NCBI RefSeq assembly: GCF_004010195.1
Contig: NW_025214404.1
Location: forward strand, 1-35,503
Direction of reading: 5' to 3'
From: Chiloscyllium plagiosum
Lineage: Eukaryota
Length of the DNA: 35,503 nt
A model generated the notes under the pieces. The model was given only the letters and a program-made list of their open reading frames with translations. It was not told the DNA's origin and did no database searches. A program made the translations under genes and the position numbers. Positions within the stretch are counted from its first letter, which is position 1. The number at the start of each line of letters is the position of its first letter. This document shows positions 2,022-27,842 of this stretch, one piece after another.

Positions 2022-2955
2022 TCAAGATGGTGGCAGAGTAGGAGGGCTGAGCCTGGGCCTCGTCTGCTCCCATCTGCCTTCAATTTTTTTTCCCTCTTTT
2101 CTTCTTTTCTCTTTCTTTATTTTCCGTTTTGTTTCTTTGTTCTTTTTTCTTTAAAGCCTGGAGAGTGGCGGGTAAAGGAGGAGGCCACTGGCAGCAGTGC
2201 CAGGACATGCCAGATATGGCTCCACTCCAACCTGGGGTCTCCTGGTGAGTGAGGAGCAGGTGTCAGGCTTACTCGCTTGGCCTGGACTCCCAGTCTTGGC
2301 TGAGGCTCCAGGTCCACAGCTAGGCCCATGTACCCAAAGGACATTGGTGAAAGGGATAGAAAGAGATGGCAGCAGCGCCTAGAAGACCATCAGATGGGGA
2401 AGGGGAGATATGGAACCGGCACATCCCCAGGCCCTGGCTCCAGCTCGAATAAAGCAGCTGCAGTGGCAGCAGTGAAGGCCTATAACCGAGACCCCTGAGC
2501 CCATTACAGAGACCCCAGAGCCCATTACACGGATCCCAGAGCCCATTACACGGATCCCAGAGCCCATTACATGGATCCCAGAGCCCATTACAGAAGCCCC
2601 AGAGCCCATTACAGAAGCCCCAGAGCCCATTACAGAGACCCCAGAGCCCATTACAGAAACCCCAGAGCCCATTACAGAGACCCCAGAGCCCATTACAGAA
2701 GCCCCAGAGCCCATTACAGAGAGCCCAGAGTCCATTACTGAGACTCCAGTCAATGTCAAGCAGTGACTAGAGGAGTAGTGGAGGAGAAACAAGGAGAAGA
2801 GAGAAAGGTGAACTCTATTGTAGTAAAATCTTGCATATTATATTTCAAGATGGCACCAGAATGTGGTGACACTTTGCATACAACTCATGAAAAACCACTT
2901 TTCACTCTATTTTCATATGTATGTCATGATAAATCTAACTTTAATCTTATCTCAA
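2022..2955 (+). mobile_element. Non-coding interspersed element (CAAGATGG head, pyrimidine tract, GC-rich body, LINE-like tail)
   Basis: Same architecture as 30056-30880, with the 3' part shared with 3350-3855. Confidence 0.6.
2488..2749 (+). repeat. 21-bp minisatellite, about 12.5 copies (GAGACCCCAGAGCCCATTACA)
   Basis: Directly visible tandem array; it produces the spurious (GSGVSVM)n ORF. Confidence 0.97.
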
Positions 2956-10415: not shown

Positions 10416-10549
10416 TGAAACAACTGCACAGAGGGCAGTATCCTGTCATTGAGTCACTCTTTATCTATATGTGCATGGTACACTGTCTGTGGACAGACAG
10501 CTCAGAGTCAGTCACTGAAGTGAGGAGACTCTGAATCCTCTGTTTATAT

Positions 10550-10926
10550 AGGAGAAAGTGAGGACTGCCGATGCTGGAGATCAGAGTCGAGAGTGTGTGG
10601 TGCTGGAAAAGCACAGCAGGTCATGCAGCATCCGAGGAGTAGGGGAATCAACGTTTCGGGTAAAAGCCCTTCATCAGGAATGAGGCTGGGAGCGTTGGGG
10701 GTGGAGAGATAAATGGGAGGGGGGTGGGGCTGGGGAGAAGGTAGCTGAGAGTATAGTAGGGGGATGGAGGTGGGGGGTAATGGTGATAGGTCAGAGGGGA
10801 GGGTGGAGCGGATAGGTGGGAAGGAAGATTGACAGGGGGACATAGAAACACCTGCCTGCAACATCAATTCTCCTGCTCCTCAGGTGCTGCATGACCTGCT
10901 GTGCTTTTCCAGCACCACACACTGTC
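10550..10926 (-). mobile_element. Penelope-like pLTR insertion with partial inverted copy and hammerhead core
   Basis: Perfect 15-bp TSD ATCCTCTGTTTATAT (10535-10549, 10927-10941); inverted arms about 10593-10650 and 10865-10923. Confidence 0.85.
10641..10680 (-). ncRNA. Minimal type I hammerhead ribozyme motif
   Basis: CUGAUGA-A-GGGC-UUUU-ACCC-GAAA-CG-UU; one stem II mismatch. Confidence 0.6.
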
Positions 10927-11224
10927 ATCCTCTGTTTATATGTCAGCCAGTGCTCTCTGACTGACCCAGGGTAAGAACCCCCAAGTCAATAAGATCCACC
11001 TGGTTCAAATCACTACATGTCTCCCCCTTATATCTGGGGATGGAGGCCTGGTCTTTCTCAGGTAGCTTCCCCTGCGATATTTTCATCACAGGTCCAGTTC
11101 CTCTGACTTGGACTCTGACACAGATGGCATGTACTGGACCATAGCTCGTCTCTTGAGGGAAGATAAAGAAATTATTCTGCTGGTTGTGGAGTTTTGGTCT
11201 GGGGCTTAACCAAACATTTTGAGA

Positions 11225-11380
11225 CATTTGGAAAGGCAGGACTGAATAGAATAATCAGCATGGCTTTGTGCTTGGGAAATCATGTCTCACAAACTTGATT
11301 AAGTGTTTTGAAGAGGTAATAAAGAAGATAGACAAAGGCAGAGTGGTAGACATTGTCCACATGGACTTTAGAAAGACCCT
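11225..11380 (+). mobile_element. CR1 RT fragment, left part
   Basis: QHGFVLGKSCLTNLIKCFEEVIKKIDKGRVVDIVHMDFRK; continues at about 12976. Confidence 0.9.
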
Positions 11381-11497
11381 TTTTGCCCTCCTGATTTCCC
11401 GACTGTCTTTATACTCTGGTAAGGATTCACTCGATCTATCCTGTCTATACCTGACATGTGCTTCCTTCTTTTTCTTAACCAAACCCTCATTTTCTTA
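11377..11497 (-). mobile_element. Short inverted CR1 ORF2 fragment
   Basis: Minus-strand LVKKKKEAHVRYRQDRSSES...REIRRAKR, the CR1 EN-RT linker. Confidence 0.8.
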
Positions 11498-11858
11498 GGC
11501 TCTTTGGTAAACGGAAGCACCTCCCTTCTTGCTGAGCAAAGGATCTTAGTGCGCTGTGGCATGGCTCTCCAGTAGCGGAGCCATCGAGACAAAGAGGCCG
11601 AATGTTGGCTGCCAAGAGCAAGACATACCGGGCTTTGCCGACCTCCTGACGCCATGGCTCTGCGGCACCGCGAGTGGGCCGTGTCTCTGCACGGGCCGGA
11701 GCACAGCATGTAACGGGCGACGTACGTGATTGTGGATTGAAAGCCGATATCCTGGCCTCACTTGAGCTGCAGCTTACTGACAAGGCTTGTTCTGTGGCTC
11801 GCAGCACCTTGAAAACCGGCCTTTTTGGGCACCCGGTATGCCACTCGGCTGTCGGCTG

Positions 11859-11931
11859 GCCTTCTTAGCGTAGGAGGCAGTGCGTCAGTCTCATAATCTG
11901 AAGGTCCTGAGTTCAATCCTTAGAGAAGGCA
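11859..11931 (+). tRNA. tRNA-Met-CAT: tRNA-Met (CAT, elongator type), possibly decaying copy
   Basis: 73 nt cloverleaf GCCTTCT-TA-GCGT..GTGC-G-TCAGT-CTCATAA-TCTGA-AGGTC-CTGAG-TTCAATC-CTTAG-AGAAGGC-A, anticodon CAT at 11892-11894, TTTT terminator at 11942-11945. Transitions give G-U pairs in the D and T stems and TTCAA instead of TTCGA. Confidence 0.9.
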
Positions 11932-12211
11932 AGACTGTGGCTTTTGCCACCGTGTGTGTTTTCTTTCTCTCTGTGGGCAAGAATATTTGCTTTGGACGGC
12001 TTCACGCCTGATTTGAGCTGACCACACCAGAGCAAACGCACTGCTGCAAGGTTTAACATCTGGGCGACACGTGCTCAACTTTTTGTTCTGCGCAGCATTT
12101 TGTAAACCCACCATCGTGCCATCTGTGCAGCAGCAAAGACTGGAGCCACATGCAGGGTTCACGCGAGGTCACACTGCTTGCGTCCCAAACGTGTCCCCAG
12201 GAAAAGCATTG

Positions 12212-12284
12212 TGGAGAATGTGGGCATCGATCCCACTACCTCTCGCATGCTAAGCGAGCGCTCTACCATTTGAGCTAATTCCCC
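12212..12284 (-). tRNA. tRNA-Ala-AGC: tRNA-Ala (AGC)
   Basis: Reverse complement GGGGAATTAGCTCAAATGGTAGAGCGCTCGCTTAGCATGCGAGAGGTAGTGGGATCGATGCCCACATTCTCCA is a canonical vertebrate tRNA-Ala-AGC with the G3:U70 identity pair. Minus-strand TTTT terminator at 12205-12202. Confidence 0.95.
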
Positions 12285-12975
12285 TACGCTAGGCACTCGC
12301 CTTAGCCCCATGGTGCTTCGGAACGATGAGCTGAGAGCAGCAGGCGATTTCCTCTCGAGATTGTACGCTGTATTCAGCCGAACAACGCGATGCGACTATC
12401 GGCACATCCGAGCAGCAGCAGCACGTGCGCGAAGTCTTCTGGAAAACACAGTGCCGCCGAAAGAATCGCCAGCAAGACGCTCTGAGATTCCAGAATCCAA
12501 AGGAACCGATCGGCATGAGCAGTCACAACAAGTGTGAGGTAGCACTCGAGAGCGCTGTCTGACTGATTGGAGACTTGCGACACTTTCAAGTGAGTGCTGA
12601 CTGACTGCGTGGATGTTGTGTTCCTCCAGAGGGCTCCCTGCTGCTCGTGGTTTGCAACTGCAGACGTCACAGCACACCAACAGGCAGAATTCTCTGAAGA
12701 AGAAGAAGGTGTATTTTGGAGAAAGAGAACACTGGGGGCTGTTACCAGACAAAAAAAGAGGGCTTCTCCTTCATCCTCGTGAGCTGCAGCCATGCGGTCA
12801 GGTTCCGCAAAGTGCTGCTTTCAGATACACGCCAAGCAGGCCGAGATGCAAATAGCAACCGCCACTCGTCTGAAGCAGCACCCGCGAGCCCTGTCTGACT
12901 GGTAGGGCCTTTCCTTAGTGCTGACCTGCTCGGATGCGTTGCTGTTCAACTTGTGCAACTGTGGAAGTGGCACAC

Positions 12976-13725
12976 CGACGAAGTTCTGCATGGGAGATTG
13001 GTTAGCAAGGTTAGATCACATGAGATGCAGGGAGAGCTAGTCAATTGTATACAAAATTGGCTTGACAGTAGAAGACTGAGGGTTATTTTTTAGACGAGAG
13101 GCCTGTGATCAGCAGCGTGCCATAAGAATAGGTGCAGGGTTCACTGGTTGTTCATCATTGTGGGCGGCACGGTGGCACAGTGGTTAGCACTGCTGCCTCA
13201 CAGTGCCGGAGACCTGGGTTCAATTCCCGCCTCAGGCGACTGACTGTGTGGAGTTTGCACGTTCTCCCCGTGTCTGCGTGGGTTTCCTCCGGGTGCTCCG
13301 GTTTCCTCCCACAGTCCAAAAGATGTGCAGGGTCAGGTGAATTGGCCATGCTAAATTGCCCGTAGTGTTAGGTAAGGGGTAAGTGTAGGGGTATGGGTGG
13401 ATTTCGCTTCGGCGGGTCGGTGTGGACTTGTTGGGCCGAGGGGCCTGTTTCCACACTGTAATGTAATCTAATCATTTATATAAACGATTTGGATGAAAAT
13501 ATAGGAGGCATGGTTAGTAGGTTTGCGGATGACACCAAAATTGTTGGCATAATTTACAATGAAGAAGGTTATCCAACAGTACAATGGGACCTTCATCAAA
13601 TAGGCCAATAGGCTGAGGAATGGCCGGTGAAGTTTAATTCAGATAAATGTGAGGTGTTGCATTTTGGTAAGACAATCTATAGCAGGACTTACATAGTTAA
13701 TAATTGGGTCCGAGAAAGTGCTTCG
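12976..13725 (+). mobile_element. CR1 RT fragment, right part, interrupted by an HE1 SINE
   Basis: DEVLHGRLVSKVRSH...IQNWL, then after the SINE IYINDLDENIGGMVSRFADDTK...KCEVLHFG. Confidence 0.9.
13162..13473 (+). mobile_element. HE1 (V-SINE) full-length, young copy
   Basis: tRNA-like head with A box TGGCACAGTGG and B box GGTTCAATTCC, V-domain gtgtggagtttgcacgttctccccgtgtctgcgtgggtttcc, CR1-like tail with (TAATC)n; CpGs retained. Confidence 0.95.
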
Positions 13726-13853
13726 AGGAGAAAGTGAGGACTGCAGATGCTGGAGATCAGAGCTGAAAATGTGTTGCTGGAAAAGCGCAGGTCAGGCAGC
13801 ATCCAAGGAAGAGGAGAATCGACGTTTCGGGCATAAGCCCTTCTTCAGGAATC
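13726..13853 (-). mobile_element. Penelope-like pLTR fragment
   Basis: Homologous to 10550-10680 and 27352-27438. Confidence 0.85.
13813..13853 (-). ncRNA. Minimal type I hammerhead ribozyme, intact core
   Basis: CUGAAGA-A-GGGC-UUAU-GCCC-GAAA-CG-UC: all core nucleotides, perfect stem II, palindromic ACGU stem III, GUC cleavage triplet. Confidence 0.8.
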
Positions 13854-13855
13854 CT

Positions 13856-14052
13856 GGGCGGCACGGTGGCACAGTGGTTAGCACTGCTGCCTCACAGTGC
13901 CAGAGATCCGGGTTCAATTCCCGCCTCAGGCGACCGACTGTGTGGAGTTTGCACATTCTCCCCGTGTCTGCGTGGGTTTCCTCCGGGTGCTCCGGTTTCC
14001 TCCCACACTCCAAAAATGTGCAGGTTAGGTGAATTGGCCATGCTAAATTGCC
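13856..14052 (+). mobile_element. HE1 SINE truncated by assembly gap
   Basis: Near-identical to the 5' part of 13162-13473. Confidence 0.95.
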
Positions 14053-14255
14053 NNNNNNNNNNNNNNNNNNNNNNNNNNNNNNNNNNNNNNNNNNNNNNNN
14101 NNNNNNNNNNNNNNNNNNNNNNNNNNNNNNNNNNNNNNNNNNNNNNNNNNNNNNNNNNNNNNNNNNNNNNNNNNNNNNNNNNNNNNNNNNNNNNNNNNNN
14201 NNNNNNNNNNNNNNNNNNNNNNNNNNNNNNNNNNNNNNNNNNNNNNNNNNNNNNN
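14053..14255. other. Assembly gap (203 N)
   Basis: Run of n characters. Confidence 1.
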
Positions 14256-14595
14256 CTCGGCAGAGTGGGAGGGGGAGTTGAAATGTTGGGCCACAGGGCG
14301 GTGTGGTTGATTGGTGCGGGTGTCCCGGAGATGTTCCCTAAAGCGCTCTGCTAGGAGGCGTCCAGTCTCCCCAATGTAGAGGAGACCGCATCGGGAGCAA
14401 CGGATACAATAAATGATATTGGTGGATGTGCAGGTAAAACTTTGATGGATATGGAAGGCTCCTTTAGGGCCTTGGATGGAGGTGAGGGAGGAGGTGTGGG
14501 TGCAGGTTTTGCAATTCCTGGGATGGCAGGGGAAGGTGCCAGGATGGGAGGGTGGGTTGTAGGGGGGGGGGGGGTGTTGACCTGACCAGGTAGTA
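14256..14595 (-). mobile_element. Penelope-like element ORF fragment (Cys linker plus GIY-YIG endonuclease)
   Basis: Open minus frame GTFPCHPRNCKTC...FTCTSTNIIYCIRCSRCGLLYIGETGRLLAERFREHLRDTRTNQPHRPVAQHFNSPSH. Confidence 0.92.
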
Positions 14596-14599
14596 GTAG

Positions 14600-15135
14600 T
14601 TTTTACCTACAATTCTGTTTGCCCTGCTATAGAAAGAATGTTATTAAACTGGAAAGTGTACAAAAATGATTTAAAAGGATGTTACTGAGACGGGAAAGGT
14701 TGAGTTATAAGGAGAGACTGGATAGGCTGAGACTTTTTTTCCCTGGAGAGTAGGAGGGTGAGGGGTGACCATACAGAATTTATAAAATCATGAGGGGCAT
14801 AGATGAGTTGAATAGCCAAGGTCTTTTCCCAATTGGGTGGTGAATTCAAAACTAGAGGGCATAGGTTTAAGGTGAGAGGGGAAAGATTTAAAAGGGACCT
14901 GAGGGGTGACATTTTCACGCAGAGGGTGGTGCGTATATAAAACAAGCTACTAGAAGAAGTGGTAGAGTGGGTACAATTACAACATTTAAAAGACATTTGG
15001 GCAAGTACATGGATAGGAGAGATTTAAAGGTATTTGGGCCAAACGCAGGTAAATGGGATTAACTTAATTTAGGAAACTTGGTCGGCATAGACATGTTGAG
15101 CCAAAGGGCCTTGTTTCCATGCTGTATGACTATGA
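14600..15135 (+). mobile_element. CR1 3' end with (TATGAC)n tail
   Basis: RLRLFSLE, RGHRFKVRGERFKRDLRGDIFTQRVV; tail ctgtatgactatgac. Confidence 0.88.
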
Positions 15136-16237
15136 CAGAACTTTCAAGAGTGAAATTAGGAAGTACATCTATTAGTATGGTGGAACTTTGAAATTTTGAT
15201 CAAGATGCTGATCAGTTGTCAACTATAGCTCTGAGATTGATAGATTTTTGTGAAGCAACTTAATGGGGCAAAGTGGCTAGATCACCGATCAATCATGAGT
15301 TCTTTGAATGGTCAAACTAGTTCAAGGAGCTTTAGGACAACAAAAAAAAAGCAAGGTGAGACAGCAATAGAGAAACAGAGAGAGATTGCAGGGCATAGTG
15401 GATTTAAATCGTTCACAATGTTGTGGATGTATCACCTCCACATACAGTGGGGTATGTACACAACACTCAATAAAGTGGAACACCATCAAGATCCAAATTT
15501 GTGGATCAATCTATGTTCAGCCACTCATGCCACCTCATATGCTGCAACAAGCAGGATGACAGGGAATGGAGGCATCTTGTACAGAAAAAGCATTAATCAT
15601 TGAATAGATTCCTCAGAGTATGAAAAAGCATCACAAACTTGTTCAGAGAAATTTGTTGTGTGTGGTGAGTGGTTCAGATCCTATGGTATTGAAGTTCAAA
15701 ATGAGAACATGAGGGGCAGAAGGAGAACTGTTGTTACCCAAAATGTAACCAAGCTGTGGCATAATTACTTGCAGAGCACTGAAGTCGTCAGTGAAATTGA
15801 TCAGAGTCACAAATCAGTTTGGAGTTCTAGTGGGAAGGAGGTGATGGTGAAAATGTAGGTAGGTGGGGTTCATCTCAAGAAAAGGAATCAAAATGTAATT
15901 TAACATACCAATATTTTAGCAAATCTGGCAACAGATCAAAACCTTGGAATCACACTATTACAGTTTCACATTTACTTGAATATGTAGAAACTGGTTTTAT
16001 TTTTGTTAATTTATTAATTTCCATTCAAATGGTTTTCAAGCTGCAGGTTTTTGATTATACGGTCAATGGGGGTGATGAGACTGATGAGGACACTAAAGAA
16101 ATAACATAACCAAATTTGATAAAATCTATAATCTCACAAAAATTCATCAGCCTGCTGCATCTGATAATCCAGATTGCTCCAATCCTCTCACCACACATCA
16201 ACCTGGCCACCCATCTTCGATATCTCCATTGACACAT

Positions 16238-17444
16238 AGAACATAGAACATGGAAACGCACAGAACAGGCCCTTTGGCCGATGATGTTGTGCAGAGATTT
16301 AATCTTAATGTAAAATATAGTAACTTAACCTACGCACCCCTCAACTCACTGCTATCCATGTGCATGTCCAGCAGTTGCTTAAATGTCCCCAATGACTCTG
16401 CTTCTACCACCACAGCTGGCAATGCATTCCATGCATTCATAACTCTCTGCGTAAAGAACCTACCTCTGATGTCTCCTTTATACCTTCCTCCTAATATCTT
16501 CAAACTATGACTCCTCGTACCAATCAATCCTGCCCTGGGGAAAAGTCTCTGACTATTGACTCTATCTATTCCTCTCATAATTTTGTAAACCTCGATCAGG
16601 TCTCCTCTCTTCCTCCTTCTCTCCAGAGAGAAAAGTCCAAGCTTATTGAACCTTTCTTCATAAGGCAAGCCCTCCAGTCCAGGCAGCATCGTGGTAAACC
16701 TTCTTTGCACCCTCTCCAAAGCCTGTGTATATTTCCTATAGTAGGGGGACCAGAACTGGACACAATATTCCAAGTGTAGTCTCACCATGAACTTGTAGAG
16801 CTGCAGCAAAACCTCGCAGCTCTTAAACTCGATCCCCCTGTCAATGAAAGCCAAAACACCATATGCTATCTTGACAACCCTATCCACTTGGGTGGCAACT
16901 TCGAGGGATCTATGCATTTGCATACCCAGATCCCTCTGTTCCTCCACACTGCCAAGAATCCTGACTTTAATCCTATATTCAGCATTCGAGTTTGACCTTC
17001 CAAAATGCATCACTTCGCATTTATCCAGGTTGAACTCCATCTGCCATTTCTCAGCCCAGCTCTGCAACCTGTCTATGTCACGCTGCAGCCTACAGTAGCC
17101 CTCTATACTATCGATGACACCTCCAACCTTTGCTTCATCTGCAAATTTACTAACCCATCCCTCAACATCCTCATCCAAGTCATTTATAAAAACTACAAAG
17201 AGCAGAGGCCCAAGAACAGAGCCCTGTGGGACTCCACTCAACACTATCCTCCAGGCAGAATACTTTCCATCTACAACCACTCTCTGCCTTCTGTCAGCCA
17301 ACCAATTCTGAATCCAGATAGCCAAATCTCCCTGTATCCCATACATCTTGACTTTATGAATGAGCCTTCCATGGGGAACCCTATCAAACGCCTTGCTGAA
17401 GTCCACATACACTGCATCCACTGCTTGACCGTCGTCAACCTGTC
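16238..17444 (-). mobile_element. Young 5'-truncated CR1 LINE with open RT frame
   Basis: 376-aa frame with DFSKAFD, SGVPQGSVLGP and FADE (instead of FADD); (TTCTATG)n tail; 9-bp TSD TTGACACAT at 16229-16237 and 17445-17453. Confidence 0.95.
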
Positions 17445-17574
17445 TTGACACATTCCCCATATTTCATCACGTGCAAAGGGTCATAATTGGTCGCAATTAA
17501 ATAACTTTTCACTTACGTGCTCCTGGTGCAGATTTTCATTCAGTGAGAGCAGACAAAATTTAACTAGCCTAAAA

Positions 17575-18030
17575 TGTTCTGGAAGGTGGCATTATCCCAG
17601 GAGGAGAGATTGAGTAGATTAAGTTGATATTCCCTGAAGTTAAGAAGAATGAAAGGTAATCTAATTGAAGCACAATATTCTTAAAGGGTTTGGCAGGCTA
17701 GGTGCTGAGAAAGTTTCTTCGCCAGGGCACCTAGAACACCAAGTCACAGTTTCAGAATGAGTGGTCAGCAACTTAGGACTGAGAGGAAAAGTCTTTTACT
17801 CAATAATTTGGGTATCTTTGGAATTTTCCATCTTAGAAAGCTTTGCATACACAGTTACTGAATATATCCAAGTTTGAGGTTGTGAGATCTTTGGGAACTA
17901 ATGGAATTAAGAAACGTAGGGATAATATGAGAAGGTGGAGTTGAGATAAGAGATCAGCCATGTTTTATTGAACATGAAGAAAGTTCAAAGGGATAACTGG
18001 CCTACTCCTGCCCTTACAATTTCTGTTCAT
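17575..18030 (+). mobile_element. Old CR1 3' fragment
   Basis: Decayed RLS...SLKLRRMKGNLIE and a 3' UTR resembling 4150-4210. Confidence 0.6.
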
Positions 18031-18261
18031 CTGTTTAGCTGTGTGTCTTTGAGTTTCAGCAAAGTGAGTGCCAAAGACAGTGAGAACATTTGCCCCAGCA
18101 CTTTAAGTTCAAATGTCCCTCAGCATCCCATAGCCTAAACATAATCATTACTATTTTGTATTCAGTGTTTTACACAGATCAACATAAAACTTTTGCTTTC
18201 CCACAAGTCTCATTTTTTTTGTACACTTTTAGTCAATTTACACTTATCGATTTACACTCCC

Positions 18262-18560
18262 TAGGTTCAATTTCACCCTTGGGTGACTGTCTGTGTGGTG
18301 TTTGCACATTCTCCCCATGTCTGCCTGGGTTTCCTCTGGATGCTTCGGTTTCCTCCCACAGTCCAAAGATGTACAGGTTCAGTGGATTGGCCATGCTAAA
18401 TTTCCCATAGTATCCAGAAAATGTGCAGACTAGGTGGATTAGACATGGGAAATGCAAGGTTACAGGGATAGGGTGGGTCTGGGTAAGATGCTCTTTGGAC
18501 GGTTCATGTAGACCTGATGGGCAGAATGGCCTGCTTCCACATTGTGAGGATTTTATGATA
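18262..18560 (+). mobile_element. Older HE1 SINE, 5'-truncated
   Basis: B box, V-domain and tail are recognisable. Confidence 0.88.
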
Positions 18561-18906
18561 CACTATATTTATATCATCATTCCGGGAGTTTTCTCACCTC
18601 AAAGTGTCAATGACACTGCACTTCTTTAGATTAAGTTACGCATAAATCTACTCCTTAAACTATCTAATTCAGCCTTTAACTGATTTGAATGGTTTTAACT
18701 GCTAACCCATATCTGCATGCATCTTGGTATATCCTATGAAGTTATGAGTGATTCTGCTGAAGTCCCTTCCAGGTAGATAACTATTGGAAATTATGGCCAT
18801 CTAAAAATAGTCAAATGGAACCTCAATTTAACTAAATCTCCTGATGTTTCAGAACACGTCACTCCTTCTATGATTTTAGATAGCTACACATCCAGAGCTA
18901 TAACAT

Positions 18907-18974
18907 TCTGATATGTTATCTAGTATGGTGACGAAATGTCTGAAAATAAACCTTCCAGCTCAGCGAGCAAGCTT
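18907..18974 (+). mobile_element. Very short Penelope-type insertion consisting mostly of a degenerate hammerhead
   Basis: CTGAT-A-TGTTATC-TAGTAT-GGTGAC-GAAA-TG-TC flanked by an 18/19 direct repeat ACATCCAGAGCTAYAACAT (18888-18906, 18975-18993). Confidence 0.6.
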
Positions 18975-19084
18975 ACATCCAGAGCTACAACATCCCATTA
19001 TAATAACTGCCCCACAATCCAATTAGATCTGAATGTTTCTAGTCTAATAACTGCCCATACCACATTTTACATAACCAGTTTTTC

Positions 19085-19185
19085 GAATCAACCTGTTCAG
19101 AGATATTATTACACATCTTTGAAGCAGGTGAGCTTGAACCCAGACCTCCCAGACCAAAGTAGGGACGTTACCAGTGTGTTACATT
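19085..19185 (-). mobile_element. Short tRNA-derived SINE remnant
   Basis: Minus-strand box A-like TAACACACTGG and box B GGGTTCAAGC. Confidence 0.45.
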
Positions 19186-19493
19186 ATTGAACACTTTTTT
19201 TGGAATTTAGGGCTTACATCGTGAACCGATCTATACACATCCGACAATCTCTGAAGATAACTACATTTGGTTACTTAAATCAGTCCTACATTCCTGGTAA
19301 TAATGCTAGGCAGTGTTAATCATTGGTTATATGCACATCCTGTATGATTTCATTCAACAACCCCTTTCCAACCAATGTCAAGCTCACAACTTGCCTGTAC
19401 ACTCTTTTGATGTTAATAAATAGATGCTTTTTTATTAACCCTGCTCTATAAATGGTTAAAGCTTTTCAGGATGTGGAAAATTGACTTTGTAGA

Positions 19494-19813
19494 TGGGCAG
19501 CACAGTGACACAATGGTTAACACTGCTGACTCACAGCACCAGGGACCTGGGTTTGATTCCAGCCTCAGGCCACTGTCTGTGTGGAGTTTGCACATTCTCC
19601 CTGTATCTGTGCAGGTTTCAGCTGGGTGTTCTAGTTTCCTCCCACAATCCAAAGATGTGCAGACCAGGTAAATTGCCCACTGCTAGGTGTGTTAGTCAGG
19701 GGATACAATATAGGAGAATGGGTCTGGGTGGGATAATGTTCAGAGGGTTGGTGTGGACTTGTTGGGCCAAATGGCCTGTTTCCACACTGTAGGGAATCAA
19801 ATCTAATCTAATC
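19494..19813 (+). mobile_element. HE1 SINE
   Basis: Full head, V-domain and tail with (AATCT)n end. Confidence 0.92.
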
Positions 19814-19836
19814 ATTTACATTAAGATGTCCATACC

Positions 19837-20009
19837 AACAGGCTTATTTGGAAGCTCTAGCTTTCAGAGCGCTGCTCTTTCATCAGGTGGTTGATGAAGG
19901 AGCAGCACTCCAAAAGCTAGTGCTTCCAAATAAACCTTTTGGACTGTAACCTGGTGTTGTGTGATTTTTAACTTGGTACACCCCAGTCCAACATCGGCAC
20001 ATCCTAATT
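19837..20009. mobile_element. Palindromic Penelope-type mini-insertion (second family) with two opposed hammerhead motifs
   Basis: Inverted arms about 19835-19886 and 19891-19942; TSD ATGYCCATACC (19826-19836, 20010-20020); minus-strand core CUGAUGA-A-AGAGC-AGC-GCUCU-GAAA-GC-UA is intact. Confidence 0.8.
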
Positions 20010-21314
20010 ATGCCCATACCGGGCTGACAACACGTCATTCCCACGTCAGGCAGAACACGGATTAAAACAAAATAAAGAATATTTGAAACACAAACAGAAA
20101 GTGCTGGAGAAACTCAGCAAGTCCAGCAGCATCTGCAGAGAGAAAAGCAGAGTTAATGTTTCAAGTCCAGTGACACTTAGTCAGTCCTGAAAGCAGCTGG
20201 GAAACGATGGTATTTATGCTGAAGGTGGTGGTGGAGGAGAAAGAAGGGTGGGGAGTGTCCAGAGACAGAGAGAGGAAAAAAAAACAAAGTCAAAGCAGAC
20301 AAAGGAGTTGCTGATGATAAGCTGGGAGAGAGATTAATGTTGAATGCATGCTAACAGGAATTGTGAATAGTTAAAAATGGGTTGGATGTGCTGGGAACCA
20401 CCTATACAGAACAGGTTTAATGGGGGGTGTGAGGGGGATAATGAACATGGAGGAGGGTGATCACATTCTGAAATTGTTAAACTCGTTATTGAGTCCTGAA
20501 GGCTGTAAGGTACAAACATGGAAGATGAAGTGCTGTTCCTCCAGTTTATGTTGAGCCTCACTGGTGCACTGTAGCAGACCTAAGGCAGAAATGTTGGCCT
20601 GAGAACATGTTGAAGTTGCAGGCAGCTGGGGGTTCAGCATCACTTTTATGGACAGACCATAGGTTTTTGCCAAAGGTGACCCAGTGTGCGCTTTGTCTCC
20701 CCAGTGTAGAGGAGACTACATTGTGAGCAGCAAATACAGGAAATTAGATCAAGTGCAGTGCAGATAAATCACTGTTTCACCTTGAAGATATGTCCGGGGC
20801 CTTGAACAGTGAGAAGGGAGGAAGTAAATGGGCAAGTGTTGTATCATGGGAAGGTGCTGTTGTGGCATGGAATGGTGTTGGGAGTAGACGAGGATTGGAG
20901 TAGTGTGTCTGGAGGGAATGGTTCCTGCCGAATGCTGACAAGGGAGATGAGGGGAATATGTATCTGGTGGAGGCATCCTGTTGGAGATGGTGGAAATGGC
21001 TGCTTATGATCTTTGGAAATACAGAAAGTGAGGTGGAAAGTGAGAACAAGGTTGTTGTAGGAGGAAATGAAAGAGGCGAGGGTAAAAGTGTGGAAAATAG
21101 GTCATATACAGCTAAAGGCATGGTCAACCACGATAGCACAGAATGCTCAGTTATAGAATAGGGTGGACATGTCTGAGACCCCCTGTTTAAGGGGGCATCA
21201 TCAGCACAGATGTAATGAAGATGGAGAAACTGGGAGAATAGAATGGAGTCCATATAGGAAGCTAGGTGTCAGGATGTATCATCAAGATAACTGTGGGAGT
21301 TGGTGGGTTTGTAG

Positions 21315-22102
21315 TGTCATAGAGTCATACAAATTGGAAATAGACCCTTCAACCCAACTTGTCCATGCCGACCAGATTTCCTAAACTGAGCCAGTTCCAT
21401 TTGCCTGTGTTTGGCCCATATCCCTCTAAATCTTTCCTATCCATGTACCTGTCCAAATGTCTTATACCTGGTGTAATTTTACCTGCCTGTATTGCTTCCT
21501 CTGGCAGCTTCTTATGCACCATCTTCTATGTGAAAAAGTTGCCCCTCAGGTCTGTTTTAAATCTTTCCCATCTCTCCTTAAACGTATGCTCTCTAGCCTA
21601 CCCTGGGGAAAAGGCGTTGGCTATTCACCCTATCCATGCCCCTTATGATTTTATAAACCTCTATAAAGTCATCCCTCAACCTCCTATACTCCAGCAAGAA
21701 AAAAGTCCCAGCCTGTCCAGCTTCACCTGGTAACTCAAACTTTCCAGTCTTGATAACATCTTTGTAAACCTTTTTTTGCACATTTTCCAGTTTAATAACA
21801 TCCTTTTTCTCAGAGGGTGACCAGAATTGCATGCAGTACTCCAAATGTGTCCTTACCATTGTCTTGTAACTTGATGTCCCAACTCCTGAACTCAATGCTC
21901 TGACCAATGCAACAAGCGTGCCACACACCTTCTTCATCACCTTGTCTAGCTGTGAGGGAACTTTCAGGGATTGATGCACATGCACCCCTAAGCGTTTCTG
22001 TCTGTCAACACTACCTGGGGCCCTACCATTAACTGTGTAAGTCATGCCCTGGTTTGTCTTACGAAAATGCAACACCTTGCATTTATCTGTATTAAACTCC
22101 AA
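21315..22102 (-). mobile_element. CR1 3' fragment nested in the Penelope element
   Basis: EFNTDKCKVLHF...HLEYCMQFWSP...IEVYKIIRGMDRVNSQRLFPRVG; tail tatgactctatgac. Confidence 0.9.
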
Positions 22103-22279
22103 ATATATTGATATATGTTGGAGGCCAGCCAACCCCTCAGAAATAGAAACAGCGATGTCGAGGAAGAGAAAGGAGGAGTCAGAGGTGAACCAGGTCAAGG
22201 TGATGGAAGGATGGAAATTTGAAACAAATTGATAAATGTTTCACAATTCCAGATGAGAGAGAGAAGCAGCACTAATCAT

Positions 22280-22440
22280 AGTTAAAAATCACACAACACC
22301 AGATTATAGTCCAACAGGTTTAATTGGAAGCACACTAGCTTTCGGAGTGTGCTTCCAATTAAACCTGTTGGACTATAACTGGTGTTGTGTGATTTTTAAC
22401 TTTGTACACCCCAGTCCAACACCGGCATCTCCAAATCATG
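22280..22440. mobile_element. Palindromic mini-insertion of the 19837 family, hammerhead core deleted
   Basis: Near-perfect 56-bp arms (22280-22336 and 22346-22401); perfect 12-bp TSD AGCACTAATCAT (22268-22279, 22441-22452). Confidence 0.88.
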
Positions 22441-23855
22441 AGCACTAATCATGTCATGGATGTACTCGAGAAAGAGTTGTGGAAGGGCCCTGAGCAGGAA
22501 TGGAACAAGGAATGTTCCATGTACCCCACAATGCAACTGGCATAAATGCAATTGAAGAGCTAACTCTGCTTTTCTCTCCACAGAAGCTGCCAGACTCTGC
22601 TGAGTTTCTGCAGCGCTTTCTGTTTGTGTTTCAAAACACAGGTGATGTTTATGGTTAAAGTCTCTCTACACTTGTCCGAAAGCTTGTCTATTGAATATTC
22701 CCAATCCAGATACAGCAATTCCATCAATATTTTCTTTCTTCTCTCCTGTTGAGGCACTCCCACCCAACACACACCTTCAGATAGAACAAATTCAGTCTTT
22801 AAAACGGTTCATGCATGTTGTATGTATATATGAAACAGTAGATTTCTATCCTCTATTAAGGTGCTCTAAGGGTTAGCAACATATCAACATTATTGCAAGA
22901 CATTTATTTTTATTAGAGATGGATGAGGAGACTTACATGTCTCATGAAATAATCTTTGTGGGTAATCTTTGCAAACTGGCTGCAATGAGACTGAGGAGCC
23001 ATACTGTGGATTTTCTTACATTCGTAGGTAACCAGTGATGGACAAACTATTCCAATCTGATCCAGAGCTACCGTACATGTGAAGAATTGTGGGAGCAAAT
23101 TGCAAGTCATTTCAGGGAAAGTTTAGAAAAGTCTGAGTAATCGAATAGGTTAATACTTACTGTCTTATGTTTTGTGTAACATAGTATGCCAAACAAGCTC
23201 TCCTTTCGGTTACACCTAATAAATGCATTCTGGGTAACACACTCAAGTAATACACCATCACAGTGATTGGGATCCAAGAAGTAATGAACCAGAGGTTCAG
23301 GAACTGAGCTTATCTGGATAGAGGGGTGAGGAATGTGAAACAGTCCCTCATTGCCTCTCCATCGTAACAACTGATGTAGGGAGTAAGCTTGTGTGCAAAG
23401 CCAACATCAATTTTTGCTGACAACTGGAAACAAGGGGTCAATTTGAACTGTACCTAATTGGTGAAAACAGGCACCAGGAAAGGAAAACAGGACATGGTGT
23501 AGAACGCTCAGCTGACCCACTACCATCTGTTTTCCAACCAGTAATATTCAGAACTGAGCCTTGAATGAGTGCAAGTGGGTCAGCTGATGACTGTTTCAAG
23601 GCCCCACTCCATGGTTTGAGTGCAGAAATTTGGCCAACCTTTCAGAATATACTGTTTTGTTCGAAGTGTCACCCTTTCTGCTCAAGCTGAACCAAGCCTG
23701 CTGGGGTGAATGTGAATACTGCAGTGAAAAGGAAATAGGACTGGTATTAATAAAGTAGGTCTTCTTCATCTGAAAGTTATGATGTGAGACTCACAAAGAT
23801 TGCATTTATTGATGTTGGACTAATTCAAATCTAACCCACAAATAAAATTGCTTAC

Positions 23856-25116
23856 CTGCAAATAGCTCCAACATTATCCATGACATAACACTGTCCACCA
23901 TTGTAGCAGTAGCTTGGGACCATGTCACAAATGGACTTGCAAGACTTATTCTGCTTCACATATCCCAGTTTGCATTCACTCCCATTTTCTCCAAGAACAG
24001 GAGGTGACAGGCTAGCATCGTGTCTGCTTTCTAAGTCAGAGGAGCCCGTGAAGGCATTTTCCTTCAGGAAAGATTCTGATTGGAAGTCCTGATTGGGCAC
24101 AGTCTGTATGTTTGTGGCTTCTTCTTTCGTCAACATGGTCTGTACCTTAGGAGAGACTGTGGTCAGCCTGAGCTCATTCTCATCCTCCAGCTCAATAGAC
24201 ACTTCTTCCCAATAATATAACGTGGTCATTTTGATATCTGAGATACTGACATCAGGACCAATTGTCAAGGCAGGTAGGTCAGGCAAATAATCTTCTGTGG
24301 ACTCTATGTTGGATGATGTCATGGGAATGTCTGGAGCTTCAATGATGGGAAATTTGTCAAAAGAGCCAATAGTTGTATTATTGTTAGAGTCATAATTGTA
24401 GTCTGTAGGCACCTGAGAGGGTTCATGTGTTGTCAAGGGCTCAAGGGCAGGGGTGATACCCAGGGGGTCTGCCCGGGTGTAATCTGTGCTCACTTCTGCT
24501 CCTTGGGTTGTGATATTGGTGGCCACTTCAGACATGCTCAACTTCATGTCCTGCTTCTCTTTGAATGCAGTAGTACTTCCTGTCGATCCAAAAGTCTCTC
24601 CACTTCCCTCTACCCCTTTTATTGGGTCTAGGCTAGGGATTGCAACTTGCTGAGTGGATGGGCTTGTCAGGCTGGGTGGCTCCTCCTCCAGTTTCTGCTC
24701 AGCTCCTTGGCAGCCAAGGCAACCCCCAAACTCCTGATCCAAATCAGTTGTCAGAGGTGGCGAGGTTACCCTTAAGCCGCCCTGAACCTCTGACATAAAG
24801 TGGCTGCCATTTGCTCCCTGCTCCCAACTCACCTGTCCACTTCCAGTTCCATCATCTAGTCCCTCCCTCTGGGTCTGCTCTACCATGGAGCTCTTCACAA
24901 AAGCATCTGCTAGACTTTGGGAGAGGTCACCTGATGTTGACCAAGCAGACTGGCTGGGGACAATGGGAACATTAGGGGAATCCTTGTGGGGAGATATAGG
25001 AGAAGCTGTCTGAGCCTCTGAGAATTGGGAATGGGTGAGAGATGAGGAATTCTCGATGGTTAGCACAGCAGAAGCAGTATCCTCAGTGGGGAAGGCAGAT
25101 GCTGTATCATCTTTTC
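23856..25116 (-). CDS. CSPG5: Large internal exon of chondroitin sulfate proteoglycan 5 (neuroglycan C/CALEB): Ser/Thr-rich GAG-attachment ectodomain plus most of the EGF-like domain
   Basis: Open frame ending ENGSECKLGYVKQNKSCKSICDMVPSYCYNGGQCYVMDNVGAICR matches my recollection of vertebrate CSPG5 (ENGTECRSGFVRHNGSCRSVCDLFPSYCHNGGQCYLVENIGAFCR). LEDENEL is conserved and Ser-Gly sites occur in acidic context (DDGTGSG, EGSGE). Acceptor ctctatttcAG (AG at 25118-25117, phase 1); donor AG|GTAAG (GTAAG at 23855-23851, phase 2). The 1261 bp length fits those phases. No other exons were found in the window. Confidence 0.93.
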
Positions 25117-25676
25117 CTGAAATAGAGCAGAGCAAATTGGGAATGAGGTAGGATGCATAACATGATGTCATTGAGTAAATGTGTATAAAATTTACACAAT
25201 GTATCCATAAATAATAAATAGGTAATACAATACACCAGAACACAAGAGTATGCACAACAAAAATATTTATGTGCATAAAGTTTAAGTATGAGGGAAATTT
25301 TGTTTAATAGTTTCTGATGACTACCTTACTGATGCAATTATATGAGTTGATTATAGAGAACATAACATTTGTCCATAAGAAACATGCTGCACAACAAAAT
25401 CAATGTACCGTGAATGCTGAAAATCTGAAATGTAAGTGGAAATTATTGAAGTCATTCAACAGGCTAGTCATCATCTATATAGAATTGAACTGAACTAATG
25501 TTTAGAATGATCATTCTATGTTAGTACCTGTATACATCTTACTAAAATGCACATATACTTGTAAATGACTAATCACATTTAAGAGATTGTAAGCATTAAT
25601 ATACACAAGTTATACTTTATATTGACAAACAATGTTTTCTTGGATAATATGTGAATTAATCCTATATATTTTTGTA

Positions 25677-26155
25677 AATTCATTCATGAGATGGCATTTA
25701 TTGCCTGCCTTTAGTTGCCCTTGAGGAGGTGGTGGTGAGCTGCCTCCTTGAACCACTGCAGTCCATTTGCTGTTTGTAACCCTTATTACCCTTACGGAGG
25801 GAATTCCAGAATTTTAGCCCAGTGACAGTGAAGGAATGGCAATATATCTTCAACTCAGGTGAGTGGCTTGGAGGAGAACTTGCAGGCAGTACCCATGTAT
25901 CTACTGTCCTTATTCTTCTAGATAAAAGTGGTCATGGTTTTGGAAGGTGTTTTGTGAATTTCTGCCATACATCTAATAAATAACACAAACTGCTACTACT
26001 GAGTATCGGTGATGGAGGGAGGTTTGCAGATGTGGTACCAGTCAAGCCGGTTATTTTGTCCTGGATGGCATCAAGCTTCTTGAGTTTTGTTGGAGCTGCA
26101 CTCATCCAGGTAAGTGGGGAGTTTTCCATCACATTCCGAGTTGCACCTTGCAAAT
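25677..26155 (-). mobile_element. 3' fragment of a second CR1/L2-clade LINE family
   Basis: MENSPLTWMSAAPTKLKKLDAIQDK on the minus strand; 3' end shared with 31719-32000. Confidence 0.75.
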
Positions 26156-27336
26156 GGTAGATTGGATTTGGGAGGCAGGAGGTGAGTATGGGTACAATGG
26201 GCACTTTTATATCTATCATTTGTACGACATATATATCGATATATATTGGACAAATTGTATTAATAGCTGCATAGATGTGAATATAAGCCCTAATACAATA
26301 CCAAACTACAGTCTGCATCTGTACACTACATTAGTATAAAACTCAAAATATACACCACATCTGAATATCATCACACTGAACATTACAAATTTATTTAACC
26401 AACTCAGACTGAACACTGGAGTTGTATATAGCGACATTGTGTTGTTATGAAGATGCTTCATTAATAATTCATTTTTTTAGGATTCCTGTTTAAAGTATTT
26501 TGGGCAGTGATTCATTTAGAAAAGACTGAAGAGATACTTGGATTTTTTTAAAGTGGCTTTAAAGACACAGGAACATTTTTAAGACACTCGTACTGACCAC
26601 TTTTTCTGTGTTTCTGTTATGAAGTAAAATGGTAAAAGGACTATTTTATCACCGAGGGACAGAGAGAAGAATTACTGCACTTTTAAAAACAAGTAATTGA
26701 TAATAATGCAAGCTTTGTTTGCACTGATGGTTTGCAAGCAGTGGAGTAGGTGAGATAAAACAGCACAATACCGGGGTGCCTACATTGAGAATTAGCCTGT
26801 AACAGATTGTGGATGTAACCAGTTGTGGATGACAGCAGGTCTCCGATTTTGCTGGGCAAGTGAACAGCTTGGTTGATTATAATAGCGGGATGAACCTCCT
26901 AATTGCTGGAAGAGCAAGTTTTGAGACTCTACCTCTCTGCAGTAAAATGATCTGAAGCCTGAAAATAGCTTGTTATTTTCTCCCACAGCAAATTGTTGTC
27001 CCTAACCAGTAACTAAGAGACTATGTAATTAGTGTACTAAACATCTTGAGAGGTAGTGAAACAGTGTGGAGAAAGGAGATTGAGAAACAAAATGTCTTGA
27101 GATTGAAAAGGAACATTTCATCAAACCCTGTGGACTTGTGCTATTGAAATAGAAAACATTGAAACACAAGATAAAATAAGGGATACAATTCTAAAGGAGG
27201 TAGAGGAACATCATCCCATCATGGGAGATTTTAATTTTCCCAACATTGACTGGGATACACTTATTGTCAGAAGTCTGGATGGGGCAGAATTTGTAAGGAG
27301 CATCCAGGGAAGTTTTCTAGAGCAATATATCAATAG

Positions 27337-27435
27337 GATGAAATCTTTGAGGAGAAGGGCTTATGCCCGAAACGTCGATTCTCCTGTTCCCTGGATGCTT
27401 CCTGACCTGCTGCGCTTTTCCAGCAACACATTTTC
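27337..27435 (+). mobile_element. Penelope-type pLTR mini-insertion within CR1
   Basis: Perfect 16-bp TSD AGCAATATATCAATAG (27321-27336, 27436-27451); stem II-GAAA-CGTC present but the CUGA box is lost. Confidence 0.88.
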
Positions 27436-27594
27436 AGCAATATATCAATAGTCCAACTAGGGAAGGGGCCATATGAGACCTGGTGTTGGGGAATGAGCCA
27501 GGCCAGGTGATCGAAGTTGCAATAGGGGATGTCTTTGGGAATAGTGACCACAACTCTGTAAGTTTTAGAATACTCATAGACAAAGATGAGAGTG

Positions 27595-27842
27595 GGGTCA
27601 AGATTAGAGTGGTGCTGGAAGAGCACAGCAGGTCAGGCAGCATCCAAGGAGGAGGAAAATTGACATTTCGGGCAAAAGCCCTTCATCAGGGACATTCCTG
27701 ATTCCATTAGCCCTTCCTGATAAAGGGCTTTTGCCCAAAACGTCGATTTTCCTGCTCCTCGGATACTGCCTGACCTGCTGTGCTTTCCAGTACCGCTCTA
27801 ATCTGGACTCTAATCTCCAGCATCCGCAGTACCCATTTCTGC
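27595..27842. mobile_element. Palindromic Penelope-type mini-insertion within CR1 with two opposed hammerhead motifs
   Basis: About 94-bp inverted arms (27597-27690 and 27716-27809); 13/14 TSD CAAAGATGASAGTG (27581-27594, 27843-27856). Confidence 0.88.

What the first reader, a model, noticed from the sequence alone, without database searches (positions are those of the whole stretch)
10550..27842. Several families of hammerhead-ribozyme-bearing Penelope-derived mini-elements scattered through a CSPG5 intron
Seen: at least eight hammerhead-like motifs (CUGANGA / stem II / GAAA / 2-nt palindromic stem III / UH) at about 10641(-), 13813(-), 18908(+), 19858(-), 19891(+), 20152(-, degenerate), 27660(-) and 27717(+), plus broken ones at 22337 and 27352. 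They have four different stem II sequences (GGGC/GCCC, GGAGC/GCUCC, GUUAYC/GGUGAC, GUC/GAC-type), so the core is kept while the helix covaries. Most sit in 70-380 bp non-coding insertions with 11-19 bp TSDs. Established: Penelope-like elements carry minimal type I hammerheads in their pLTRs that work best as dimers, and non-autonomous retrozymes use them. Inference: this shark hosts several ribozyme-carrying non-autonomous PLE derivatives that move as tiny units. I do not know whether these specific families have been described.
Basis: partly seen in the sequence, partly recalled or inferred. Interest (0 to 1): 0.75.

Follow-up and report, generated by a model that had tools for sequence, protein, structure and literature searches.

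The report
Shark Penelope stubs carrying hammerheads
These short inserts in a shark gene are end pieces of very abundant Penelope-type jumping genes, each with a small and mostly damaged hammerhead RNA motif; they are likely dead one-off copies rather than mobile mini-elements, and their front ends likely mark where the parent element's RNA begins.

Summary
The motifs are real (4 exact cores against 0.2 in shuffles), but only 1 of the 8 claimed is fully canonical. They are the ribozyme-plus-tail ends of four ordinary Penelope-like families; two motifs of families A and B alone have 132,608 and 32,790 exact genomic matches, and the window is not enriched. All four families connect upstream to GIY-YIG coding sequence. 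Foldback junctions differ from copy to copy and no ribozyme tandem arrays appeared, so the 'non-autonomous mini-element' reading is not supported. The more interesting result: 5' ends pile up at the hammerhead's 5' edge (stop rate 0.052 per base, against 0.0075 at the predicted cut), on initiator-like bases, with a 4- to 6-fold excess of G just before. Foldbacks pair one tailed with one tail-less arm (98 of 106). Likely mechanism: reverse transcriptase starts at the tail of the upstream repeat and runs off the capped, uncut mRNA start. RNA reads did not test this directly. The scan reached a similar reading before on other DNA of this genome (e1-8022009).

The parts
10550..10926 (.). E1, family A foldback insertion (377 bp): long tailed arm on - (about 10550-10838, includes ~160 nt of 3' UTR) and short arm on + (about 10853-10926); 15-bp TSD at 10535-10549 and 10927-10941
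10645..10681 (-). Minimal hammerhead, core intact, one stem II mismatch
13726..13853 (-). E2, family A tailed arm whose 5' end is at -32 from the predicted cut with a G before it; no TSD found
13816..13852 (-). The only fully canonical minimal hammerhead in the window; sense to the host gene
13856..14052 (+). tRNA-type SINE copy abutting E2, followed by an assembly gap at 14053-14255
   Evidence: repeat family D1; SINE label from recall
14259..14552 (-). Penelope GIY-YIG endonuclease fragment with the upstream Cys linker (family A)
   Evidence: (PF01541, E 1.4e-5)
18907..18974 (+). E3, family C (Poseidon-type) stub, 68 bp, damaged core; 19-bp TSD with one mismatch, part of it shared with the element's end
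19837..20009 (.). E4, family B foldback; - arm with CUGA at 19886 (core intact, closing pair changed), + tailed arm with broken core at 19891; 11-bp TSD
20080..22635 (-). E5, family D: old ~2.5 kb truncated copy; damaged hammerhead at 20184, GIY-YIG remnant 20679-20882, thumb 20909-21316, RT end 22136-22279, inverted tail 22547-22635; interrupted by a LINE and by E6
22280..22440 (.). E6, family B foldback with its apex inside the hammerhead; 12-bp TSD
23856..25116 (-). Large exon of the CSPG5-like host gene, with AG acceptor and GT donor; separates E1-E6 from E7-E8
27337..27435 (+). E7, family A stub, 99 bp, 5' end inside the core plus filler; 16-bp TSD, inserted in a LINE
27595..27842 (.). 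E8, family A foldback; - arm CUGA at 27689 (core intact, stems I and III damaged), + tailed arm CUGA at 27717 (core broken); 14-bp TSD with one mismatch

Best explanation
The inserts are end pieces of four abundant endonuclease-bearing Penelope-like retrotransposons, each likely laid down once by the parent's enzyme and then left to decay, and most short ones are likely run-off copies of the first 70-140 bases of the parent mRNA. Shown: an element reads hammerhead - tail - ORF (RT, GIY-YIG) - 3' UTR - hammerhead - tail; copies end at two fixed 3' points; 5' ends concentrate at the hammerhead's 5' edge; a G is over-represented just before that edge; foldbacks join one tailed and one tail-less arm head to head. 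Inferred: transcription starts at that edge from an internal promoter. The protein nicks both target strands and primes at the two tail sites. Priming in the upstream repeat runs off the capped 5' end after about 100 bases and gives a stub, or a foldback when both strands prime and the two cDNAs join by microhomology or filler. Priming in the downstream repeat gives longer, variably truncated copies. The template is therefore likely uncut RNA, and the ribozyme is likely kept by selection only in master elements.
For: Coding links: GIY-YIG upstream of A, B, C and D. 57 of 343 A arms and 39 of 171 B arms extend more than 100 nt upstream of the cut. 5'-end stop rate per base: A 0.052 at -37..-27, 0.0075 at the cut, 0.007 and 0.003 upstream; B 0.041, 0.005, 0.005 and 0.004 (histograms). 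Reference-free check: of 51 TSD-flanked A arms, 19 start at -39..-22 and none at -5..+5; control TSD rate 32 of 559. Modes fall on pyrimidine-A steps: A at -32, B at -37 and -31. G before the mode, genome-wide: A 2,086 against 1,300 for A+T; B 2,255 against 1,038; base composition predicts a ratio near 0.36 (42% GC). Local control: G at 15 of 28 peak junctions against 75 of 251 others (p 0.018), and 9 of 12 against 38 of 126 (p 0.003). Of 4 arms that run on into the ORF start, 3 begin at -28, -30 and -35; the fourth is a foldback cut at +3. One tailed plus one tail-less arm in 64 of 68 A and 34 of 38 B foldbacks. 99 RNA reads leave the reference at -32. Papers: internal RT initiation at two sites bounding the tail, both strands cut and extended, ribozyme cutting not needed (PMC11167929); start site inside the pLTR (PMC2377424; PMC8557442); extra G at full-length L1 junctions reflects capping (PMC11702581).
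Against: No direct transcript start was seen: both read lays list no place where many molecules begin or end, and reads lie on both strands, as expected of passengers in host RNA. The peak is about 10 bases wide. Among 30 inspected G-junctions the G is clearly untemplated in only about 5, is the last base of the target duplication in about 7, and is ambiguous at foldback or filler junctions in the rest (my reading). In family A the G could also come from a jump to the repeated stem I sequence. The TSD check was weak for family B: 24 of 79 against a control of 24 of 228, with only 2 at the peak. In D. virilis the start lies well upstream, beyond a 75-bp intron, so the position is not universal. 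No intact full-length copy could be read because long copies fall in assembly gaps. Families C (17 arms) and D were not testable for the peak. The positional sample comes from the first 10 Mb of one contig.
Confidence: 0.6

Rival explanations
1. Same origin as dead Penelope end pieces, but the pile-up reflects RT stalling or template switching at the hammerhead structure, or processing such as a splice acceptor at helix I, rather than the mRNA start.
For: The peak coincides with the 5' strand of stem I and is broad. The motif is partly self-complementary, which favours microhomology joins there: 8 of 69 A foldbacks share one spacer length. The D. virilis intron ends at helix I (PMC4209133). 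Many G's come from the target or the other arm.
Against: A structural stall is expected on entering the helix from its 3' side, where the stop rate is low. Spliced templates would give shared upstream exon sequence, but upstream sequences are unrelated. The G excess holds in family B, whose stem I sequence cannot supply it.
Confidence: 0.27
2. One reading: the short units are non-autonomous families (retrozyme- or SINE-like) that are transcribed and re-inserted as units.
For: Units are short, TSD-flanked, very numerous, and two thirds to three quarters keep the whole core (228 of 343 A, 126 of 171 B). A stub that starts at the start site could keep an internal promoter and the RT binding site. 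Non-autonomous PLE derivatives are described (PMC8557442; bioRxiv 10.64898/2026.07.22.740005). Three copies with an ORF-start piece between two repeats exist, each with its own junction.
Against: Junctions are nearly all different. The recurring junction occurs in several subfamilies and with either arm tailed. No ribozyme arrays were seen. The core decays at CpG like flanks. Foldback RNAs fold into long hairpins that lock the ribozyme.
Confidence: 0.1
3. The ribozyme cuts the template in vivo and the stubs are copies of cut or circularised RNA.
For: Proposed in the literature (PMC4209133). A few arms start at or near the cut (22 of 327 at risk for A).
Against: The stop rate at the cut is no higher than inside the core (0.0075 against 0.0101 for A; 0.0054 against 0.0078 for B). 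None of 51 TSD-flanked A arms starts there. No tandem units were seen.
Confidence: 0.03

Closest known systems
Insertions of EN+ Penelope-like elements: 5'-truncated copy, adjacent inverted truncated copy, optional 30-40 bp tail (PMC8557442, PMC3846280; passages read)
   Same: 5' truncation, head-to-head inverted arm, tail on one end only, TSD, C-terminal GIY-YIG, Cys linker in families A and B as described for Neptune/Nematis, none seen in family C as in Poseidon.
   Different: Here the copies number in the hundreds of thousands and most are only the ribozyme-plus-tail end; the passages read do not describe a pile-up of 5' ends at the ribozyme edge or an extra G.
Minimal type I hammerheads of metazoan PLE pLTRs (PMC4209133; parts 1-2 of 4 read)
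   Same: Extra base between positions 9 and 10.1, G10.1-C11.1 pair, palindromic stem III, short stem I, mostly single motifs or opposite-strand pairs from truncated PLEs.
   Different: Stem II is 4-6 bp. Sharks are not among the genomes named in the parts read. Cleavage was not tested here.
Poseidon of Anolis carolinensis, PAc (PMC11167929; parts 1-2 of 4 read)
   Same: Two 3' end points bounding a tail; hammerhead just upstream; both strands extended; no sign of ends at the cut.
   Different: In family A the ORF starts after the tail, not inside the hammerhead. The paper does not map the RNA 5' end or discuss run-off stubs in the parts read.
Non-LTR retrozymes (PMC7229834, passages; bioRxiv 10.64898/2026.07.22.740005, parts 1-3 of 5)
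   Same: Non-coding, hammerhead-bearing, related to pLTRs, longer TSDs.
   Different: Retrozymes are head-to-tail repeats of a fixed 150-450 bp unit, mostly with canonical ribozymes and circular RNA. These are single or head-to-head pieces of variable extent with minimal ribozymes.

Membership tests
EN+ Penelope-like element | GIY-YIG endonuclease C-terminal to RT, upstream of the 3' repeat | tested here: met
   A; B: (translated remnants); C; D:
EN+ Penelope-like element | pLTR repeated at both sides of the ORF | tested here: met
   Family A only: 4 arms run on into the ORF start, others follow the ORF end. Not found for B, C, D in the sample.
EN+ Penelope-like element | Optional 30-40 bp tail, inverted 5'-truncated copy, TSD | tested here: met
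EN+ Penelope-like element | Intact full-length RT-EN ORF in this genome | tested here: inconclusive
   All 9 long-frame candidates were assembly gaps; a 654-aa RT relative is annotated in Chiloscyllium punctatum
Neptune/Nematis clades (A, B, D) versus Poseidon (C) | Cys-rich linker between RT and EN | tested here: met
   Present in A and B, not seen in C, too decayed in D; definition from PMC8557442
Neptune/Nematis clades (A, B, D) versus Poseidon (C) | RT phylogeny with named references | not tested
Minimal type I hammerhead of PLEs | Core, extra base after position 9, G10.1-C11.1, palindromic stem III | tested here: met
   Met by the majority of family A and B copies and by 1 of 8 window motifs
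Minimal type I hammerhead of PLEs | Self-cleavage as a dimer | not testable with these tools
   Cofolding gives a dimer-like core for family A only; B and C pair through stem II instead. Weak evidence.
Non-LTR retrozyme | Head-to-tail repeats of a fixed unit, each with a ribozyme | tested here: not met
   None in the window. Same-strand neighbours in the sample have scattered spacings; of the 17 spaced 380-470 nt that were printed, 14 are separate or unrelated pieces and 3 enclose an ORF start.
Non-LTR retrozyme | Circular or monomer-length RNA | tested here: inconclusive
   No joint going back from tail to cut and no end peaks in poly(A) reads; this library type is unsuited
Non-autonomous family (SINE- or MITE-like) | Fixed boundaries and shared internal junction among copies | tested here: not met
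   47 spacer lengths in 69 A foldbacks, 26 in 38 B foldbacks

The most novel reading that the evidence does not exclude
Hundreds of thousands of shark Penelope stubs are a fossil 5'-end map: the mRNA begins, capped, at the first bases of the hammerhead; the enzyme primes about 100 bases downstream on uncut RNA from both nicked strands; and the ribozyme at the very front of the message works as a dimer-dependent off-switch that removes the cap, not as a processing step for insertion.
Probability: 0.35. Interest if true: 0.65.

Novelty: new member of a known kind. Interest (0 to 1): 0.36.

Why it matters
What remains of value is mechanistic. The role of the Penelope hammerhead and the origin of the inverted, one-tailed insertions are open questions, and these very large copy numbers give statistics: ends avoid the cut, cluster at the ribozyme's front with a cap-like G, and pair one long with one short 3' end in over 90% of foldbacks. 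That yields single-base predictions for the start site and for an in vitro assay that already exists for a lizard Poseidon. It also warns repeat annotators that such stubs can be mistaken for SINE, MITE, microRNA or retrozyme families.

Tried and rejected
First motif scan without the extra base after position 9 found nothing; corrected. Rfam: no hammerhead family; weak plant microRNA matches on the foldbacks are far below gathering scores. Nine 'long open frame' hits were runs of N. I first read E2 as one truncated long copy; the gap and missing TSD leave this open. The 5' peak as an artefact of missing subfamily references was rejected by reading junctions and by TSDs. An apparent cluster of tandem spacings at 400-470 nt was mostly separate insertions. 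Family D density was dropped because its anchor cross-matches family A. Sequencing runs: no RNA holder listed for the queried stretch; run X20 laid no reads. Loci were left out of end statistics unless the same arm also lay in the positional set, because their queries bias the ends. Pfam found nothing on the CSPG5 exon or on two decayed E5 frames. Literature: 8 searches answered; 'shark genome + Penelope + hammerhead' gave 0 papers, and the one paper listed was seen as a listing only. Lunse et al. 2017 (PMC5785218) is not held and may cover these motifs; I saw only its citation in the passages of PMC6765202. Supplements of PMC4209133 and of the 2026 preprint were not read and may list shark motifs. 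Repbase and Dfam could not be checked.
Full report
Setting. The window is a whole contig of a 3.56 Gb genome. A minus-strand exon at 23856-25116 matches a Chiloscyllium punctatum protein at 96-99% and proteins named chondroitin sulfate proteoglycan 5-like in other sharks, with splice signals at both ends. No other exon lies in the contig, so six insertions are on one side of this exon and two on the other.

The observation. A scan allowing one extra A after CUGANGA finds four exact cores, all on the minus strand, against 0.205 on average in 200 shuffles. Reading each named motif: one is fully canonical (13848), three have an intact core but a damaged helix, four have core changes, and two are halves. 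Six insertions of 68-377 bp have 11-19 bp TSDs; two have none, and both sit on or beside Penelope coding remnants. In the three short foldbacks the arms are predicted to pair into one long hairpin, and in E1 the 3' part of the motif pairs with the other arm. Stem II reads GGGC/GCCC (A), GGAGC/GCTCC (B), GTTACC/GGTRAC (C) and GGGTC/GACYC (D). Stem I also differs by family and stays paired, and stem III is ACGT or AGCT. These are the four traits that PMC4209133 lists for PLE minimal hammerheads.

What the elements are. Exact matches in the genome: 44,050 for a 33-base family A core, 132,608 for a 33-base A tail motif, 32,790 for a 30-base B motif; reversed-pattern controls gave 0. Against bycatch rates in about 1 Mb, the window has 4 A arms (8.5 expected), 2 B (1.7) and 1 C (0.6) by the same anchors. 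Each family runs upstream into a GIY-YIG frame: A with a Cys linker, B likewise, C of Poseidon type, D in the window itself. Four A arms run downstream into the ORF's N-terminus, which gives the layout hammerhead - tail - ORF - 3' UTR - hammerhead - tail. No intact master could be read.

Do the short units move as units? From 324 loci and the window I extracted 506 A, 219 B, 56 C and 74 D arms. End statistics use only arms in loci chosen by patterns downstream of the cut or by position (343 A, 171 B, 17 C with an alignment). Foldback spacers take 47 lengths in 69 A cases and 26 in 38 B cases (identical spacers were counted once, and a few recur at different loci). The commonest junction uses a microhomology inside the motif and occurs in several subfamilies and both polarities. 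Same-strand neighbours are mostly separate insertions. Copies decay through the core: G12 is changed in 36 of 207 A and 23 of 116 B copies, while subfamily differences fall on position 7, loop II and flanks. This is the pattern of dead copies of selected masters. The architecture is the one described for EN+ PLEs (PMC8557442; PMC3846280; PMC8969392), and PMC4209133 already notes opposite-strand pairs and single motifs from truncated PLEs.

Where the ends fall. 3' ends lie at two points about 35-40 bases apart. 153 of 346 A arms and 75 of 174 B arms have the longer end, yet 64 of 68 A and 34 of 38 B foldbacks join one long with one short arm, which fits priming of the two nicked strands at the two start sites shown in vitro for a lizard Poseidon (PMC11167929). 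5' ends pile up at -37..-27 (A) and -40..-27 (B) from the predicted cut: 133 of 234 A arms and 74 of 128 B arms that reach this zone stop in it. The cut itself shows no excess. TSDs confirm this for A without any reference (19 of 51 at -39..-22, 0 at -5..+5) but are uninformative for B. The modes are the A of TCATT (A, -32) and of CCACA and TCACC (B, -37 and -31), which resemble initiator steps (consensus from recall). G precedes these modes 2,086 times against 1,300 for A+T in family A, with G-G excluded, and 2,255 against 1,038 in family B; T counts include ordinary C-to-T decay. Local controls agree (p 0.018 and 0.003). In 30 inspected loci the G is untemplated in about 5, target-derived in about 7 and ambiguous in the rest. 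An extra C on the cDNA would give both the first and second kinds, but this is inference. Extra G at full-length L1 junctions is read as a cap trace (PMC11702581, one passage).

RNA. Poly(A) reads of one run with the same species label cover the stub region on both strands at 250-715 fold, the 3' UTR and ORF end at 5-70, and the ORF start at 0-8 per strand. No start or end peak is listed; 99 reads leave the reference at -32, which repeats the genomic junction peak. This shows passive transcription of stubs and does not test the start site or cleavage.

Mechanism and rivals. Most likely (0.6): run-off from the capped front of uncut mRNA after priming in the upstream repeat. Stalling or processing at the ribozyme (0.27) gives the same dead stubs. 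Non-autonomous units (0.1) and copies of cut RNA (0.03) fit poorly. Together the first two make 'dead Penelope end pieces' about 0.87. All four intact cores are sense to the host gene; with four cases and a need for dimers this may be chance, and an effect on the gene is unlikely but untested.

Novelty. The kind is known. I found no paper on shark Penelope hammerheads and none stating the 5'-edge pile-up, but a key paper was not held, supplements were not read, and repeat databases could not be checked. After forming this reading I looked up earlier notes: one on another piece of this genome reaches a similar run-off reading and others describe the same debris. They are unreviewed and not independent support. 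Interest 0.36.

Noticed in passing
window 11500-12990: A GC-rich block that interrupts a LINE and holds two intact-looking tRNA genes, Met(CAT) at 11859-11931 (+) and Ala(AGC) at 12211-12284 (-); it looks like a piece of a tRNA gene cluster inside the intron.
   Followed up: partly
window 2488-2749: Minisatellite of 12.5 copies of a 21-base unit, open in several frames.
   Followed up: no
L164:+, L195:-, L304:+: Three family A copies with about 280-325 bases of ORF start between two repeats, each joined to the hammerhead edge at a different ORF position; they may record a template jump after run-off.
   Followed up: partly
L039, L042, L105: Internally deleted family A copies joining the ORF start to the 3' UTR, each with its own junction.
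   Followed up: partly
L003, L007, L240, L280, L285, L323: Family A insertions land inside family B ends near the same T-rich spot at B's short 3' end, suggesting that one family's end is a preferred target of another.
   Followed up: no
window 18888-18993 (E3): The target shares about 9 bases with the element's short 3' end, as if priming used target-RNA pairing here.
   Followed up: no
window 10677, 13848, 19886, 27689: All four intact cores are sense to the host gene; probably chance.
   Followed up: no
family C loci L137-L160: The ATG inside the hammerhead core opens a frame through the tail by my reading of the sequence, as reported for the lizard Poseidon; not checked against a full ORF.
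   Followed up: no
P0018, P0033: Annotated ray and skate proteins named as a kinase-domain protein and nicotinamide riboside kinase isoforms contain Penelope RT-thumb sequence; either gene-model artefacts or exonised copies.
   Followed up: no
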